This document shows, piece by piece, positions 31,307 to 39,684 of a DNA stretch of 64,000 bases (position 1 is its first letter; each line of letters opens with the position of its first letter). The translations under genes were made by a program, and so were the position numbers. The notes under the pieces were generated by a model. That model worked only from the letters and a program-made list of their open reading frames with translations, did no database searches and was not told the origin of the DNA. Source of the stretch: Octopus sinensis (taxonomy: Eukaryota); contig NC_043007.1 of assembly GCF_006345805.1 (NCBI RefSeq), positions 20,708,001-20,772,000 of the forward strand, given 5' to 3'.

Positions 31307-31378
31307 GGCAGTTTAGCTTAATGGTATAGCACTCGGCCAGTCATTGAAGGATGTGGGTTTGAGTCCCATGGCTGTTTG
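31307..31378 (+). pseudogene. tRNA-like sequence (pseudo-tRNA or SINE head)
   Basis: A-box tagcttaatggtatagc and B-box gtgggtttgagtcccat; anticodon arm does not pair well. Confidence 0.45.
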
Positions 31379-31942: not shown

Positions 31943-34900
31943 ATGGTAGGAGTGAAGAGAACACCTAAATCAAGTAAGAAAATCCCTAAAGAAGCAAAAG
32001 AAGTAACTACTAAAAAAAGAATATGTAAAGATACAGAAAACGAGAAAAATACTGAATGTTTGTTTTTAAAACCTGAAGTGAATTTTAATGATTCCAATGA
32101 TTTTAAAACTCCTGAGAGGAAAATTGGTACCGGCAGATCTAGACTCCGTAACCAAATTGATTATGTAAGACTTAACGATCCTCAGAAAAAGGACTATTCT
32201 TTAATTAGAAAAAACGCAAAACAGAGTATATCAGCAAACACTTCCGTCGAATCTGTGAGCGTAACTCCTCCAGAAAGTTCCAGGAAACGTGCAAGAAAAT
32301 CTTCCCAGACCAAAAATGAAGATTCACATTTGCAAAATGTTACCCCATCTCCGAAACCTGAAAAAATTCATTTATCTCAGCCAAAATCTGTTAAACCTCC
32401 GAGTAAGCAACTTAAGGAGAGCAAAAACAAAGTAAATTCCAAATCAAAGACCTCAGATTTTGGTAAAAAGTTTCTTGAAGAAAAGTCTTTATGTAATACC
32501 CTGACTCAACAAATTTCCAAGTCTAGATTGCCAAAAAGTCAAAATTTGTTTGATTTGATTCAAAGTTCAGATAATAATGCTTCTTTTTCTGGCACCACAA
32601 TCTGCAAAAGTCCTTGTGACCCCTTGGAAATTGTGGAAAAAGGAAACTCTTCTTTCATTTCAGGTGAGCAGTCTGAAATATCTAATAGCAGCGGAACTTA
32701 CTTGCGAAATAGGAGAAAAATTAGTTATAAATTCAATATCAAAGAATCCAGAAAATGTGTTCCCACTGTTACATCTTCACATGTCTCCTCTGTTTCATCT
32801 TCACATGTCCTCTCTGTTACATCTTCACATGCCACCTCTGTTACATCTTCACATGACCTCTCTGTTACATCTTCCTGTATCCCTTCTGTTACATCTTCAT
32901 ATGCCCCCTCTGTTATGTCTTCACATGTCCCCCCTGTTATGTCTTCACATGTCCCCTCTGTTGCATCTTCACATATCCCTTCTGTTACATTTTCACATAT
33001 CCCTAATGTTTCATCTTCAATTGTCCATTTTGTTACATCTTCACATGTCTCCACTATTACATCTTCACATATTTCCCCGTTTACATCTTCACATGTCCCC
33101 ACTATTACATCTTCACATATTTCCCCGTTTACATCTTCACATGTCCCCATTGAAACAGCTTCACGTGTCCCTCTTGTTACATCTTCACATGTCCCCATTG
33201 AAACAGCTTCACGTGTCCCTCTTGTTACATCTTCACATGTCCCCATTGAAACAGCTTCACGTGTCCCTCTTGTTACATCTTCACATGTCCCCACCGGAAC
33301 ATCTTCACATGTCTTCACTGAAGTATCTTCACACATTCCTAATGTTACATCTTCACATATCTCCAATGGGACCTCTTCACATGTCTTTTCTGTTACACCT
33401 TCACATGTCCCCGCCGAAGCAGATTCACACTTTTCTACAGTTACATCTCCCCTTGTTTATGCTATTACATCTCCAATTGCTCCCACAGAAACAGGATTTG
33501 ACCATGGACAAAATAAACTGAAATTAGACAATGATTTTACTGAAGTACAAATGAAGGTGTGTCCTACATGCAAAGATGATTTTCCTGTTCTATTATTCGA
33601 AGAGCATGTACTACAATGTCTCAAGGAACAATTTCAGTCATCCAGCCACAAGCCATTTGACAATAAAACAAAACACAGCCAAATATCCCAAGATGAAATA
33701 TTAGCCCATAAGTTGCATGAAGAACTGAACGAAAATGCCTTGACAACTAACGACTCTCCAGAATCTGACAAAATCCTGTGTTGTATATGTAAAACAGATT
33801 TGACCTGCTTGAATTCATTACACAGAACTCAGCATATCAACACATGTATTGACCAGGCAGAAAATGCAAAAGCTCCCCCTGACACTCTAACACAATCTGT
33901 AGTCATTTGTCCTATGTGTGGGCAGCAGTTTAAGTCTTTTTCTTTAAGAGAGATGCATTTCAAAAGCTGTGGAAGGGATAAATTTATTGCACCTGGACAG
34001 CACGTTATTGCAAATGTCCATGGTGAACCCAGCAGATTGACCACAAACAAAAGGCAGCCAAAGAATAGAAAAACATCCAAGTCTAAAAAAGCTCCTGATG
34101 ATCAGCTTGAGCTAGCGCTAGCCATGTCTAATTCTCTTCAAGAAGAACAAAACAAACAGGAAGAGCAATTAAGTCGGTGTATCCAGAATATAAAAAAAGA
34201 AGTTTTGAAAGAGTTAAAAAATCAGAAAAACAAACAACTTCCGTTGTTAGTTACGTTATCGGATGAAGAGCGCCAAGAATGCAATGCCGGAAAAGTTGCT
34301 AATATTATGAACGAAAATTTTGAAAATGTTTCCTTAAGTAAAAGGCATAAACATAGTTCTTTAGTTTCAACAGAACCTTCCAATCTATGGCTAAAATCTT
34401 CGCTAACTCAGGCAGATTCTTCAAAACTTCCATTCTATGTGAATTCATTGATGCCCCCCATTGAAATGGATGTTTTAAATGTAGGAAGTCGATTGAAACA
34501 TTTATCTAGAAACACTGAAAGTGTTATTAATCGAAATACAACTGATTCTGCTGATAAAGAAACGGATGAGCAACCAGTAGCGCCAAGCCAAACTGCTCTT
34601 ATCTTAGCTGAGCTGGCCAATGACGATGAACCTACAAATGGTTCTATGCACAATCCTGTCGAAGATGAGTCACCAAATGTTCAAAAAGAAACGAATGAAG
34701 AACGTTCAACAGGTTTACTTACATCTTTAAGTTCAGACCTTTGTCAGTTAGTCAACAACTCTAGTTTTAGTGATGTTCAGTTTATGACAGCTGACGGAAC
34801 TAAAGTTTTTGGACATAAAATAATTCTCCAAATCAGATGCCCCAATATTTTAAACAGAGTCTCTACTCATCTTGAGACACCCACAGTTCATCTGAGCGAA

Positions 34901-37900
34901 GTATCTCATGATCTGTTAATAGTGCTTCTGAAGTATATTTATGCAGGGCAGTTAAATATAGATGAAACTCAAGCAAACAACTTAAGGATGCTCTCCCAGG
35001 AGCTTGAAATGCCTGAATTATTTCAAGCCTGTGAGAAAATATCAAAAACCAGTGTAAATCATAACCAACAAAGTTCAGATTTTTATCCATCTCCTTTAAA
35101 AACAGTTGATAGTATGATTGATTATTTGCTTGAAAGCTCAGATGACGATGTTGACAACAGAAATATTTGCCCAGAAAATCCAAGCTGTGATTATAAAATA
35201 TTAGATAGAGAGGAACAACCTCAAAATTCTCAGAATGACGACCAGTCTACTGTAACAAAAGATTCTGCCGAATTTCAAAATCCCACAAATTCCTCTCCAA
35301 ATGTTATCTCACCTTCTTCGAAAGTTTTGGAAAAATCATTAAATGGATATTCTGGTGATAATGGAAGCAATTTGGATTATTTGTCAAATGTGCCTGTTTC
35401 TTCTCAACTTGGATCATCTGCTCAGTTACCTGAAATAAACTGTGACAATCAGCCAAACGAACCACAATCTAATTACAATACTGATCCTTTATCCACTGAT
35501 AAAACTGACAATAACCCTTGTGATGTTGTGATGACACTGCAAAAGTCTCCATCCGACTTAACATCCTCACAGAACACACCTCATCCACCAGAGGCTGAAA
35601 AAGGTTTCGTGCTAAATAAAAATGTGCTTCCATCATTCACATCCACTTTGCCTGTTTCTACTAATTTAACTGATAACAGCAATAATAACTCTGATAATAA
35701 AGAGCAACACCAATTAAATAATGCTGAATTAATTGAAGATTTTTCTCCAATTCATTTTGAGGACGAATCTTTTAACAATTCTCCTGAGACAAAATCTAAT
35801 TGTGATGATATTGCAACACCCGAAAAGGACAACCTTCACAACAACAGGGAAAATGTATTAAGTTTAAGTGATGATCTGTCAAACATGTCCAAAGAATTAT
35901 TTAGTGACGAAGAGCTAGAAACTGCAGAAAACAACAAGACCAGTATCCAGAATAGTTTTCATAACCAACATGAATTCACATTGTCTCATCAAATAGTGGA
36001 AAATATATTTCCTTGCCATAAAGAAAATAAACCAGGCATTTCAGAACCTAGCTTTTCTAGTCATGAAATTGTCTCCTTAACTAAAGACAGCGACCAAATA
36101 AATAATAGTCCAAATGTAGATAATAACGTTGCAGATAATCCAGTTTGTAGGATTATTTATACATCTCGGTCTTTGACGTCTGCTGATGGATCAAACAAAG
36201 AACTGACTGTTCCTCTGTCTCTTCCTACAGAGACTAATTGTAATTTAGGAGAAAAATTTGGTTTTCTAAATTCTCCTGCTCCAGTTTTTCCAAAAACACA
36301 AGAAGTCAAGGACATAAATAAAAACCTGAATGATGATCAACCAGAGACTTTTTCTCAAAACCAAAATAGAAAAAGAAAACAAAGTTCTCTGTCCTGTTCA
36401 CCTTTAAACAGGAAGAAAACTAAGAAGGATCTTGAAACGGAAGGGAACAGTCATTTAACTTTATATAAGAGAAGTTCTCCAATTTTAGACTCAGACAATT
36501 CAAAGTTAGATACAAGCAAAGAGGTGCAGTTTTCACCAATCAATTCATTAAATTCGTCTGTTAATTTATGTAACGAGAGTGGCAGCAATGAAGTATACAC
36601 AGTAAAATCTGAAACGAGTATTATTACAGTTTTTAATGACAGCTATGAAAATACGCATCAGTTTAAAAATGAGAGTGATCTTGATATAAGTAAGGAGGCA
36701 TATGGGGACATTTCTGAGATAAATAATCTGCAAATAAGCCCTAAACAATCTAATGACGCTGAGTCAAATAGGGAATCCATTGGAAGTGCGTCTCCTGAAA
36801 AGAATTCGAGTTATGAAAATGATAGAGAAATATATGAAGAAAGTTTCTTTGCTGATGATATGAATGAAACAACTTATGGGAAAGCCCATTTTAGTGTATT
36901 AAATAGTTTTATCCAGGATAATCCTGACTTGTATAAAAAAATACTTGAGTATGAGCCAGTCGATTTTGGTGTTTTGAAGAAAAGACTTGGAGAATCTAAT
37001 ATAAAATGCTCAAATAAAAAACTGCTTGAATATCTTGAGAATCAGTGTATAACATTTATTTTGGAGAAAAATAAACGAAGTAGAAAGTCTTGCTCACCGC
37101 AGAAAAGAAAAACTGTTAAGGAAAACCTTAACCTAGAGGCAAGTAGTAATTTAGAAACAGTGGCAAGGGTGGAGGAATCATCAGAGAAATGTTCATTAAA
37201 TTCATCTTTTAATATTTCCGATGAGTTGTATAATGATGAAGACAGGAAAACTAAACAGTTTGATGGTGATGTTACCAATGAAGCTGAAACGGCAGATTTA
37301 AAGAAACTTTCCCCAAACATCTCGAATGATTTCTGTTCCACCAAAGAACACCAAGTGGAACCATCTGAAAAACCAAAGAAGAGATTTGTATTCAAAAAGA
37401 TTACGGCAAAATCCATAATTTGCAGTTCAACAGGAAACAAAAGTGTGGATGTTGGAAATCCTGACTCCCTTGTGAAATCGTTTACTGGACCATCAGCTTC
37501 TGATAAAAAAATTACAAACTGTGAAAACCTTCAGTCAAATCATAATGTCACCAATGACGTCTGGGGACAATTTTCTGATGATAATTTTGATGATATGGTA
37601 CCATTCTCCCCAGTACCTTCACATTCCAATGTTAATTTGAACTCCAGTAAAGATAAACTAGATTTACCTCCTGCAGCTGAACAAAACCTTGCTCCCTCTT
37701 CATCACATGATTGTTCTTACACAAGTATGATGGAAGATATAAAAAACTTGTCATGTCTGGGATCGGAATTAAATTGTACTTTATCTGATTCATTTGAAAA
37801 TATTGATCTGAAGGGTAATCCTGAAGCAAAATTTCAAACCCCAGCAAACTATCGTGAAAAAGAGCAAAGTATTCTTTCGCCCTTTACCCCAATGCCGGAT

Positions 37901-38509
37901 TACGATAAAATGACCACACCAGGCCTGAAAAAAGAGATGAAGAAATACGGTTGCAAAGCAAGACCTAAGAAGAATATGATAAAGGTTCTTAAAGACATCT
38001 TTATCAGAACTCATCAGTATAAAAGCGATAGTGAACACGACACGAGTAGGGATACAATTAAGGAAATCTCTGAGACGAACAGATTCCAAGTAAGCTCCCC
38101 AGAACCCAAGGATCCTAAGACTGATAAAGAATCAGCTGAGAGTATATCTCCTATAAATATTTCAAGTTTTGAAAATGATGGAGTGGTTATATATGAAGAA
38201 AATTATATTGCTAATGAGGCAGAAGAAGTAATGAGCAGTCAGCAGGCGAATGGAGAAATACTTTTTAGTAAAGTAAATGCTTTTATCCAAACTAATCCTG
38301 ACTTCTATAGAAAAGTACTTCAGTACGAACCTCTTGATTTTGATGTTTTGAAGAAGACTCTTGAAGAGTCCAATATAAAATGCCCTGCTAATAAACTGCT
38401 GGAATATCTAGATAACCAGTGTATAACATTTGTTCTGAATAAAGATAAACAAACTAAGAGAAAACCACAAAGGGGGACTGGCAGACCGAGGAGAGGAAAG
38501 AAAGTTTGA
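31943..38509 (+). CDS. SLX4: Structure-specific endonuclease scaffold SLX4 (BTBD12/FANCP)-like, 2188 aa, single coding exon
   Basis: Acceptor (t)n-gcag at 31915; ATG in accATGg at 31943; three C2HC UBZ-like fingers; DDQLELALAMSNSL; BTB (SDVQF...GHKIILQIRCP...LLKYIYAG); SAP-like TPMPDYDKMTTPGLKKEMKKYG; C-terminal FYRKVLQYEPLDF...LLEYLDNQCITF (SLX1-binding domain). Confidence 0.93.
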   Translation: MVGVKRTPKSSKKIPKEAKEVTTKKRICKDTENEKNTECLFLKPEVNFNDSNDFKTPERKIGTGRSRLRNQIDYVRLNDPQKKDYSLIRKNAKQSISANTSVESVSVTPPESSRKRARKSSQTKNEDSHLQNVTPSPKPEKIHLSQPKSVKPPSKQLKESKNKVNSKSKTSDFGKKFLEEKSLCNTLTQQISKSRLPKSQNLFDLIQSSDNNASFSGTTICKSPCDPLEIVEKGNSSFISGEQSEISNSSGTYLRNRRKISYKFNIKESRKCVPTVTSSHVSSVSSSHVLSVTSSHATSVTSSHDLSVTSSCIPSVTSSYAPSVMSSHVPPVMSSHVPSVASSHIPSVTFSHIPNVSSSIVHFVTSSHVSTITSSHISPFTSSHVPTITSSHISPFTSSHVPIETASRVPLVTSSHVPIETASRVPLVTSSHVPIETASRVPLVTSSHVPTGTSSHVFTEVSSHIPNVTSSHISNGTSSHVFSVTPSHVPAEADSHFSTVTSPLVYAITSPIAPTETGFDHGQNKLKLDNDFTEVQMKVCPTCKDDFPVLLFEEHVLQCLKEQFQSSSHKPFDNKTKHSQISQDEILAHKLHEELNENALTTNDSPESDKILCCICKTDLTCLNSLHRTQHINTCIDQAENAKAPPDTLTQSVVICPMCGQQFKSFSLREMHFKSCGRDKFIAPGQHVIANVHGEPSRLTTNKRQPKNRKTSKSKKAPDDQLELALAMSNSLQEEQNKQEEQLSRCIQNIKKEVLKELKNQKNKQLPLLVTLSDEERQECNAGKVANIMNENFENVSLSKRHKHSSLVSTEPSNLWLKSSLTQADSSKLPFYVNSLMPPIEMDVLNVGSRLKHLSRNTESVINRNTTDSADKETDEQPVAPSQTALILAELANDDEPTNGSMHNPVEDESPNVQKETNEERSTGLLTSLSSDLCQLVNNSSFSDVQFMTADGTKVFGHKIILQIRCPNILNRVSTHLETPTVHLSEVSHDLLIVLLKYIYAGQLNIDETQANNLRMLSQELEMPELFQACEKISKTSVNHNQQSSDFYPSPLKTVDSMIDYLLESSDDDVDNRNICPENPSCDYKILDREEQPQNSQNDDQSTVTKDSAEFQNPTNSSPNVISPSSKVLEKSLNGYSGDNGSNLDYLSNVPVSSQLGSSAQLPEINCDNQPNEPQSNYNTDPLSTDKTDNNPCDVVMTLQKSPSDLTSSQNTPHPPEAEKGFVLNKNVLPSFTSTLPVSTNLTDNSNNNSDNKEQHQLNNAELIEDFSPIHFEDESFNNSPETKSNCDDIATPEKDNLHNNRENVLSLSDDLSNMSKELFSDEELETAENNKTSIQNSFHNQHEFTLSHQIVENIFPCHKENKPGISEPSFSSHEIVSLTKDSDQINNSPNVDNNVADNPVCRIIYTSRSLTSADGSNKELTVPLSLPTETNCNLGEKFGFLNSPAPVFPKTQEVKDINKNLNDDQPETFSQNQNRKRKQSSLSCSPLNRKKTKKDLETEGNSHLTLYKRSSPILDSDNSKLDTSKEVQFSPINSLNSSVNLCNESGSNEVYTVKSETSIITVFNDSYENTHQFKNESDLDISKEAYGDISEINNLQISPKQSNDAESNRESIGSASPEKNSSYENDREIYEESFFADDMNETTYGKAHFSVLNSFIQDNPDLYKKILEYEPVDFGVLKKRLGESNIKCSNKKLLEYLENQCITFILEKNKRSRKSCSPQKRKTVKENLNLEASSNLETVARVEESSEKCSLNSSFNISDELYNDEDRKTKQFDGDVTNEAETADLKKLSPNISNDFCSTKEHQVEPSEKPKKRFVFKKITAKSIICSSTGNKSVDVGNPDSLVKSFTGPSASDKKITNCENLQSNHNVTNDVWGQFSDDNFDDMVPFSPVPSHSNVNLNSSKDKLDLPPAAEQNLAPSSSHDCSYTSMMEDIKNLSCLGSELNCTLSDSFENIDLKGNPEAKFQTPANYREKEQSILSPFTPMPDYDKMTTPGLKKEMKKYGCKARPKKNMIKVLKDIFIRTHQYKSDSEHDTSRDTIKEISETNRFQVSSPEPKDPKTDKESAESISPINISSFENDGVVIYEENYIANEAEEVMSSQQANGEILFSKVNAFIQTNPDFYRKVLQYEPLDFDVLKKTLEESNIKCPANKLLEYLDNQCITFVLNKDKQTKRKPQRGTGRPRRGKKV
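32766..33475 (+). repeat. In-frame 33-bp coding minisatellite (11-aa unit, VTSSHVPS-like) in SLX4
   Basis: gttacatcttcacatgtccc recurs about 20 times, including 66-bp higher-order dimers (IETASRVPLVTSSHVP x3). Confidence 0.92.
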
Positions 38510-38803: not shown

Positions 38804-38859
<56 letters not shown>

Positions 38860-38920
38860 TATATAAGAAATTAAAAAAGGAAAATACACACACTTCCATG
38901 GTTTTAATATAATTTTTAAT

Positions 38921-38956
38921 ATATCGACCGGTTTCGCTATCGCTATTCATGATAAT
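38921..38956 (-). ncRNA. Candidate minimal hammerhead ribozyme, A3-U8 core variant (left arm)
   Basis: Minus: UAUC-AUGAAUA-GC(GAUA)GC-GAAAC-CG-GUC-GAUA. Confidence 0.55.
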
Positions 38957-39137
38957 ATGTTTTACTTATTTGAATATATGTTTTTTCTTAAGAAGAAATT
39001 TTGTCCATGTTGTGTGTGATGAAATTCACGAGTGAATTTATCTACTTGTGAAGTCATTCACTCGTGAATTTCATCACACACAACATGGACAAAATTTCTT
39101 CTTAAGAAAAAATATATATTCAAATAAGTAAAACATA

Positions 39138-39172
39138 ATATCATGAATAGCGATAGTGAAACCGGTCGATAT
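39138..39172 (+). ncRNA. Candidate minimal hammerhead ribozyme, A3-U8 core variant (right arm)
   Basis: AUAUC-AUGAAUA-GC(GAUA)GU-GAAAC-CG-GUC-GAUAU; 5-bp stem I, palindromic ACCGGU stem III, predicted cut after 39167. Confidence 0.55.
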
Positions 39173-39311
39173 ATTAAAAATTATATTAAAACTATGTGTG
39201 TGTGTGTATTTTCCTTTTTAATTTCTTATATACATTACAATTCACCACGTGGGGATAATCGGAATTCCTCTTTTCCATTACTGCATATATATATATGTGT
39301 ATATTATATAA

Positions 39312-39353
<42 letters not shown>

Positions 39354-39684
39354 TAGATAGATAGATACAGTTTCGTTACAATTGTGTTAAGGTATATTGT
39401 TGAAAATGTATTTTTAATATTACTTGCAATAAAATTTCAGTATTAAACACTGGTGACATGTTACATTAAATGAATCATAATAAACCTAATTGTAGAATTA
39501 GAACATCACGGAGCCAAATGAGACTTGACCATTTTGGTTGCTTTACCATTTGTACAGAAGACACCAGGTATAAAGCTAGGTTGTTCAATAAGTATTGTCC
39601 TCACAAATGGATAGGATTTGCCATTATAGTTGGATCTTTTAGGCCAGTGAACGTTCTCTGATCTTTTGATAATGATGATGATGA

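What the first reader, a model, noticed from the sequence alone, without database searches (positions are those of the whole stretch)
39138..39172. Ultra-small hammerhead with an A3-U8 swapped core pair
Seen: AUAUC-AUGAAUA-GC(GAUA)GY-GAAAC-CG-GUC-GAUAU, about 35 nt, present in both arms of an inverted repeat. Stem III is the perfect palindrome ACCGGU, and the terminal stem II pair is G-C in one arm and G-U in the other. Inference: C3A with G8U is a compensatory double transversion. I do not recall it as a common natural variant but cannot search to confirm. The motif is short and stem II has only 2 bp, so a chance match is not excluded.
Basis: partly seen in the sequence, partly recalled or inferred. 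Interest (0 to 1): 0.75.

Follow-up and report, generated by a model that had tools for sequence, protein, structure and literature searches.

The report
Retroelement hammerhead with swapped core pair
The 35-base motif is the hammerhead-shaped RNA element carried by a decayed family of Penelope-like jumping genes, with an unusual A-U pair in place of the usual C-G in its core; related families in the same genome use U-A, U·G and G-C there, so the pair was likely kept by selection, but self-cutting is untested and this particular copy is likely inert.

Summary
The motif is real and not chance. It lies in the terminal repeat (pLTR) of a Penelope-like retroelement family with an RT plus GIY-YIG ORF. 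The window holds two 5'-truncated ends of it, joined as an inverted pair in (TA)n about 350 nt past the SLX4 stop. The genome has 1054 exact A3-U8 core matches (control 3).

Copies picked by their endonuclease, not by the motif, read A3-U8 in 12 of 12 young and 18 of 21 old copies. A sister clade reads U3-A8 in 27 of 29. A third clade switches between A3-U8 and G3-C8 (80 and 12 of the first 100 hits). Stems I and II also change compensatorily, and N7, N17 and loop II vary as hammerhead rules allow.

PLE minimal hammerheads and natural U3-A8 are published; I found no paper reporting natural A3-U8 or G3-C8, but two key papers were unavailable. Cleavage is not shown, 5' ends do not pile up at the cut site, and this inverted copy would fold into a 169-bp hairpin. 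The G·U in one arm is likely CpG decay. Verdict: new variant of a known kind.

The parts
39138..39172 (+). Minimal type I hammerhead motif: stem I ATATC/GATAT, core A3 U4 G5 A6 A7 U8 A9, 2-bp stem II (G10.1·U11.1 in this copy), G12 A13 A14, palindromic stem III ACCGGT, C17 at 39167 (predicted cut after it)
   Evidence: family comparison
38921..38955 (-). Second copy of the motif, with the family-type G10.1-C11.1 pair and a 4-bp stem I
39036..39284 (+). 5'-truncated 3' end (pLTR) of a clade-A Penelope-like element, with the longer of the two 3' ends (tail present), running into (TA)n
   Evidence: BLAST to a longer natural copy, 91%; the two 3' end types seen
38857..39037 (-). Inverted, 5'-truncated second pLTR copy with the shorter 3' end (no tail), running into (TA)n
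   Evidence: 94%
31943..38509 (+). Neighbouring host gene, not part of the element: SLX4-like single open frame of 2188 aa (BTB and Slx4 domains); the insertion begins about 350 nt past its stop

Best explanation
The motif is the hammerhead-shaped element in the terminal repeat of a decayed Penelope-like retroelement family, and its A3-U8 core pair likely does the job of the usual C3-G8 pair, so the family's RNA would cut itself slowly after C17, likely as a dimer or with protein help, while this inverted copy is likely inert. Shown: position in the pLTR about 240-300 nt after the endonuclease; family-wide A3-U8; pairing kept through switches at 3-8, stem I and stem II across related clades. 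Inferred: two motifs of a tandem transcript pair through the ACCGGU palindrome to build stem III; the cut trims the element RNA upstream of the ORF start, which lies 162-210 nt after the core. Not shown: cleavage, its rate, or its use in vivo. At this locus a read-through RNA is predicted to form a 169-bp hairpin that buries the motif.
For: PLE context: RT (PF00078) and GIY-YIG (PF01541) in one 635-aa natural frame ending about 285 nt before the motif; two-step 3' ends, (TA)n targets and inverted truncated pairs match published PLE anatomy (PMC8557442 passages). Endonuclease-anchored samples: young A 12 of 12 A3-U8; old A 18 of 21 with a motif (30 loci, 9 without); clade B 27 of 29 U3-A8 (30 loci). 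Clade F with 3 and 8 left free (hand count of the 100 listed of 267): 80 A-U, 12 G-C, 1 C-G, 7 unpaired. Old vs young A: 20 of 20 constrained positions equal by column majority while flanks are 75% equal; only N7 and one loop II base differ. Stem I was not specified in the core patterns and reads TATC/GATA, TGTC/GACA, TAGTC/GACTA, AAGCA/TGCTT, AGTCA/TGACT, AAGAAAT/ATTTCTT. Stem II reads GC/GC in A, B, D, E and GT/AC in F1. N17 majorities are C or A. The double-hammerhead dimer scores -12.3 vs a best dimer of -12.7 kcal/mol for the minus-arm copy.
Against: No cleavage data. In pairwise mutagenesis of a type III hammerhead only the G3-C8 swap rescued activity and other doubles there were low (PMC9901934 passages). 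Published PLE minimal hammerheads cut weakly even as dimers (PMC4209133), and the anole PLE ribozyme needed protein and was dispensable for insertion in vitro (PMC11167929). 5' ends of 30 copies holding the ORF start do not pile up at the cut site: only 1 of the 7 within 60 nt is at about +2. Stem II has 2 bp and no loop-loop contact was identified. Each family-level switch is one historical event, so copy counts overstate independence. The tree is unrooted with unsettled bootstrap. No intact clade-A ORF among the 150 scored matches (longest frame 635 aa).
Confidence: 0.7

Rival explanations
1. The hammerhead fold is kept for a non-catalytic role, such as binding the PLE protein or positioning reverse transcription; the 3-8 pair is kept as structure but the RNA rarely or never cuts.
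For: No pile-up of 5' ends at the cut site; 9 of 30 ORF-start copies run upstream through the site. Anole PLE data: uncut RNA is the main template and no reads end at the site (PMC11167929). A3-U8 low in one mutagenesis study.
Against: Every catalytic position (U4, G5, A6, A9, G12, A13, A14, A15.1-U16.1, H17) is kept across clades whose flanks barely align, including the non-G rule at 17, which a mere binding fold would not obviously need.
Confidence: 0.22
2. A3-U8 is a dead ribozyme: a master element lost the core by chance and its copies inherited the letters without selection.
For: All clade-A copies descend from few masters, and the family looks extinct.
Against: A3-U8 persisted through successive subfamilies whose flanks diverged 25% while stem I changed compensatorily. 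It occurs in two separate clades (A and F). In F both positions change together. No family with a fixed mismatch at 3-8 was seen in the samples examined.
Confidence: 0.06
3. A3 is kept because A3-U4-G5 spells an AUG used as the element's start codon or as a regulatory upstream frame, and U8 compensates.
For: In young clade A the core AUG opens an 18-codon frame in phase with a downstream ATG-TAA (42 of 44 measurable copies).
Against: The long ORF has its own ATG 162-210 nt downstream, with a stop between. The phase is not kept in old clade A (1 of 9). Sister clades have UUG or GUG at the same place. Any A3 spells AUG because U4 and G5 are fixed.
Confidence: 0.02

Closest known systems
Minimal type I hammerheads (min-HHR) in pLTRs of metazoan Penelope-like elements (Cervera and de la Pena 2014, PMC4209133)
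   Same: Type I layout, palindromic short stem III, G10.1-C11.1 pair, position in the pLTR, thousands of truncated copies, opposite-strand pairs a few hundred bases apart, expected dimer mechanism.
   Different: A3-U8 (and G3-C8 in a sister clade) instead of C3-G8 or U3-A8; no extra base between A9 and G10.1; stem II of 2 bp, shorter than any helix II in their Figure S3 rows I read.
Natural U3-A8 core variants (Perreault et al. 2011, PMC3088659; Schistosoma Cercyon PLEs, PMC4209133)
   Same: Compensated change of the 3-8 core pair; Perreault also reports stem II often of only 2 bp.
   Different: Those keep pyrimidine at 3 and purine at 8; here the polarity is reversed (purine 3, pyrimidine 8).
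Neptune/Nematis-type EN+ Penelope-like elements (described in Craig et al. 2021, PMC8557442)
   Same: [quoted passage not shown]
   Different: No difference seen; Neptune vs Nematis was not resolved because no reference sequences were placed in a tree.
Small dimeric hammerhead variants of PLEs (Lunse, Weinberg, Breaker 2017)
   Same: Short palindromic stem III and dimer cleavage, by title and by the review PMC6765202.
   Different: Unknown: the paper was not available, so I cannot say whether it lists A3-U8.

Membership tests
Type I hammerhead (core) | U4 G5 A6 N7 - A9, G12 A13 A14, A15.1-U16.1, H17 | tested here: met
Type I hammerhead (core) | Literal C3 and G8 of the published consensus | tested here: not met
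   A3 and U8 in the window and family; filed as a variant, not as a member of the published consensus
Type I hammerhead (core) | Watson-Crick pair between positions 3 and 8 | tested here: met
   A-U, U-A and G-C in related clades; U·G in two subfamilies
Type I hammerhead (core) | Stems I and II with compensatory change | tested here: met
   all 5 stem I pairs change on both sides, 85% of cells paired, in 12 hand-picked distinct rows
Type I hammerhead (core) | Site-specific self-cleavage after H17 | not testable with these tools
   only contigs were available; the genomic 5'-end proxy gave no pile-up
Rfam hammerhead families | Score at or above gathering threshold | tested here: not met
   only a tRNA-like hit in the window
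PLE min-HHR (Cervera 2014) | Located in the pLTR of an RT-GIY-YIG element | tested here: met
PLE min-HHR (Cervera 2014) | Palindromic 15.2-16.2 / stem III | tested here: met
   ACCGGT invariant in 13 of 13 aligned rows (these bases were part of the patterns) and the majority in endonuclease-anchored samples
PLE min-HHR (Cervera 2014) | Extra unpaired base between A9 and G10.1 and a long helix II | tested here: not met
   A9 is followed directly by G10.1; stem II has 2 bp
EN+ Penelope-like element, Neptune/Nematis type | RT, CX2-5CxxC linker, C-terminal GIY-YIG | tested here: met
EN+ Penelope-like element, Neptune/Nematis type | Placement among reference RTs in a phylogeny | not tested
   no reference PLE proteins were fetched
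Non-LTR retrozyme | Short head-to-tail tandem units with a canonical hammerhead and no ORF | tested here: not met
   copies are truncated ends of an ORF-bearing element; the window pair is inverted

The most novel reading that the evidence does not exclude
One radiation of Penelope-like elements in a single animal genome has repeatedly rewired the hammerhead 3-8 core pair to A-U, U-A, G-C and U·G, with a stem II as short as 2 bp, and all of these cut. Purine-3/pyrimidine-8 hammerheads would then be a working, high-copy natural class that CUGANGA-based searches miss, and some PLE clades called hammerhead-less may carry them.
Probability: 0.4. Interest if true: 0.6.

Novelty: new variant of a known kind. 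Interest (0 to 1): 0.42.

Why it matters
The C3-G8 pair of the hammerhead was established by crystal structures and rescue mutants, and the natural variant I found in print is U3-A8. Here over a thousand genomic copies carry A3-U8, and a close sister subfamily carries G3-C8. That gives matched natural constructs, differing almost only at 3 and 8, to test how much the core tolerates in a very small, dimer-dependent ribozyme. It also argues that PLE hammerheads stay under selection for the active fold rather than drifting, which bears on the open question of what they do, and that search descriptors should leave 3 and 8 free but paired. The locus itself is an ordinary dead insertion.

Tried and rejected
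Rfam scan: no hammerhead. Monomer folding: no support from energy. Start-codon idea for the core AUG: rejected. GTAAGT downstream as an intron donor: older subfamilies read GTAAAG and I saw no AG acceptor before the ORF start; dropped. Genomic sign of cleavage (5' ends at +1): not found in 30 loci. Sequencing runs: no RNA holder listed; the eight runs laid were contigs and cannot show ends or strand. Metagenome scan for the A3-U8 pattern: 10 hits, none with a convincing stem I by eye, treated as chance. PDB sequence search with a clade-B ORF: 0 hits. Bacterial promoter scan: irrelevant and at background. Alignment A2 and its pair count were discarded because four rows of families B and C were out of register; the A-vs-B column comparisons had the same fault, and only the pairwise local alignment is used (the hammerhead is the best match, 6 of 500 shuffles as high). 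Two loci in the first tree (L064, L114) were chimeric: an A-type motif behind a B-type endonuclease. Literature searches for natural A3-U8: 'A3-U8' 0, 'A3U8' (34) 0, 'C3A'/'G8U' (35) 4 irrelevant, 'positions 3 and 8' (50) 0, 'AUGANUA' (87) 0, 'hammerhead ribozyme'+'octopus' (71) none describing it; Perreault supplements held no searchable alignment.

Full report
OBSERVATION. The motif is at 39138-39172 (+) as described, and a second copy is at 38921-38955 (-). They lie in a 169-nt inverted repeat. The minus copy begins UUAUC. The window has 2 matches against none in 100 shuffles. Rfam finds no hammerhead, and the 35-mer does not fold as a monomer.

WHAT IT BELONGS TO. The arm is a dispersed repeat: 1445 first-look candidates, 40 scored. 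Other copies extend upstream to variable lengths into an ORF. One natural 635-aa frame holds RVT_1 (E 1.5e-6, just under the curated cut-off), a C-X4-C-X2-C linker and GIY-YIG (E 1.5e-6). Copies end at two 3' points about 50 nt apart and sit in (TA)n. This is the anatomy of Penelope-like elements with a Neptune/Nematis-type linker (PMC8557442, passages). The window locus is two 5'-truncated ends joined at 39036-39037: a plus copy with the tail and an inverted copy without it. It begins about 350 nt after the stop of an SLX4-like 2188-aa frame. In copies that keep a 5' repeat, the long ORF starts at its own ATG 162-210 nt after the core (6 copies). The family looks extinct: the longest open frame among the 150 scored endonuclease matches is 635 aa (19037 candidates, shared with other families). 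The host is an animal with a 2.7-Gb assembly; that it is an octopus is my guess from recalled repeat likeness, not a tool result.

IS A3-U8 A COMPENSATED PAIR? Exact counts in the genome: 294 for the young pattern (control 0), 251 for other loop II forms (control 0), 1054 for a relaxed A3-U8 pattern (control 3), 1712 with position 8 not U (control 5) and 104 with G3 (control 4). To avoid selecting on the motif I sampled by endonuclease and looked downstream. Young clade A: 12 of 12 A3-U8. Old clade A: 21 of 30 loci kept a motif within 3 substitutions, 18 of them A3-U8; the other 9 were truncated or more decayed. Clade B: 29 of 30 kept a motif, 27 of them U3-A8. Between old and young A the column majorities agree at 20 of 20 constrained positions and differ at N7 and one loop II base, while flanks agree at 226 of 300 ungapped columns (naive P 0.0035). 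Stem I changes from TGTC/GACA to TATC/GATA.

A further clade, F, carries the same core with A17, stem I AAGCA/TGCTT or AGTCA/TGACT, and in F1 stem II GT/AC. With only F's flanks fixed and positions 3, 7 and 8 free, 267 matches were found (control 1). Of the 100 listed I counted by hand 80 A-U, 12 G-C, 1 C-G, 7 unpaired and no G·U; a few G·U copies appear. An endonuclease DNA tree of 60 rows (at most 4 per motif type, at least 90 aa covered, within 420 nt of the motif) gives three groups: A with one E-type row (100/97), F (100/99, holding both A-U and G-C) and B plus D (100/99, holding U-A and U·G). The bootstrap had not settled and the root is only a midpoint. On 12 distinct hand-picked rows of A, E and F, 90% of cells pair, and all five stem I pairs change on both sides. 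Positions 3, 8 and stem III of those rows were partly fixed by the search patterns; stem I was not. These switches are a handful of historical events, not hundreds.

No C3-G8 family was found among the related PLE clades on the tree. The switch actually seen is A3-U8 with G3-C8, two transitions that could pass through G·U; the direction is unknown. C3-G8 occurs in this genome in an unrelated 355-360-nt tandem family, which also has U3-A8 members. The U at 39157 is private to this arm: C dominates in laid contigs (237,485 of 240,957 summed depth in X16; 7217 of 7420 in X15), so it is most simply CpG decay.

HOW IT LIKELY WORKS. By analogy with published PLE hammerheads, two motifs in a tandem transcript would pair through ACCGGU to build stem III and cut after C17. 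ViennaRNA gives this dimer -12.3 kcal/mol against a best dimer of -12.7 for the minus-arm copy, and -8.7 against -10.7 for the plus-arm copy. These are weak folds. At this locus the two motifs are on opposite strands, and a read-through RNA folds into one hairpin of -243 kcal/mol, so the copy is likely inert.

EVIDENCE AGAINST ACTIVITY. Among 30 loci holding the ORF start, 5' boundaries within 60 nt of the cut site fall at -55, -39, -39, +2, +15, +19 and +26, and six more run further upstream; there is no pile-up at +1. The runs available were contigs only. Pairwise mutagenesis of a type III hammerhead found rescue only by the G3-C8 swap (PMC9901934, passages). From memory, Przybilski and Hammann 2007 found that any Watson-Crick pair at 3-8 keeps some activity depending on context; I saw only its title in a reference list. 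The anole PLE hammerhead needed protein, was not required for insertion, and showed no RNA ends at its site (PMC11167929, parts 1-2 of 4).

COMPARISON AND NOVELTY. Minimal hammerheads in pLTRs, opposite-strand pairs and natural U3-A8 are in PMC4209133 (main text parts 1-2 of 4 and supplement parts 1-2 of 3); none of the Figure S3 rows I read has A3-U8 or G3-C8. PMC3088659 (passages and section 8) reports U3-A8 and 2-bp stems II. Searches for natural A3-U8 found nothing, but the library lacks Lunse et al. 2017, which describes many small PLE hammerheads (seen only as a citation in PMC6765202), and its supplements may bear on novelty. Other papers seen: bioRxiv 2026.07.22.740005 (part 1 of 5), PMC3884650, PMC13725137, PMC6155905 and PMC7229834 (passages). 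Earlier AI notes of this scan mention single A3-U8 and G3-C8 hammerheads in phages; I did not check them, but they suggest these pairs are rare rather than unique. Craig et al. used the string 'cuganga' as well as relaxed descriptors when they found no canonical hammerheads in Naiads, so paired-but-free descriptors are worth trying there.

VERDICT. A real hammerhead-type motif of a known kind of element, with a core pair variant that is fixed in two clades and backed by covariation, but untested for cleavage. New variant of a known kind; interest 0.42.

Noticed in passing
G000 clade F, e.g. L349:1501-1527 and L369:2001-2026: Sister subfamilies of one PLE clade differ at hammerhead positions 3 and 8 together (G3-C8 vs A3-U8); natural G3-C8 was not found in the papers I read.
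   Followed up: yes
L129, L142, L170, L308-L320 (clade B): A young, abundant PLE clade (97-99% alike, frames up to 850 aa) with U3-A8, a U3·G8 subfamily and C17 or A17; the best source for in vivo tests.
   Followed up: partly
L156-L177, L130, L136: A 355-360-nt tandem repeat family with a longer-stem type I hammerhead (C3-G8 and U3-A8 forms), no endonuclease hit in the one locus tested: looks like a non-LTR retrozyme.
   Followed up: partly
window 31943-38509 (+): SLX4-like gene as one uninterrupted 2188-aa frame, with a second copy of the C-terminal Slx4 domain near residue 1650 and a 24-nt tandem repeat (32758-33412) coding Ser/His-rich units.
   Followed up: partly
window 38857-39284: The first AATAAA after the SLX4 stop is at 39428, beyond the inverted repeat, so the 169-bp hairpin could lie in the mRNA 3' UTR and be a substrate for A-to-I editing; not tested.
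   Followed up: partly
L270, L271, L272: Three ORF-start copies begin 39-55 nt upstream of the cut site, just before stem I; possibly a transcript start, but n is 3.
   Followed up: no
L064, L114: Clade-A motif found behind a clade-B endonuclease, suggesting one PLE inserted into another's terminal repeat.
   Followed up: no
window 31307-31377 (+): Weak tRNA-like Rfam hit (32.9 bits), possibly a SINE head.
   Followed up: no
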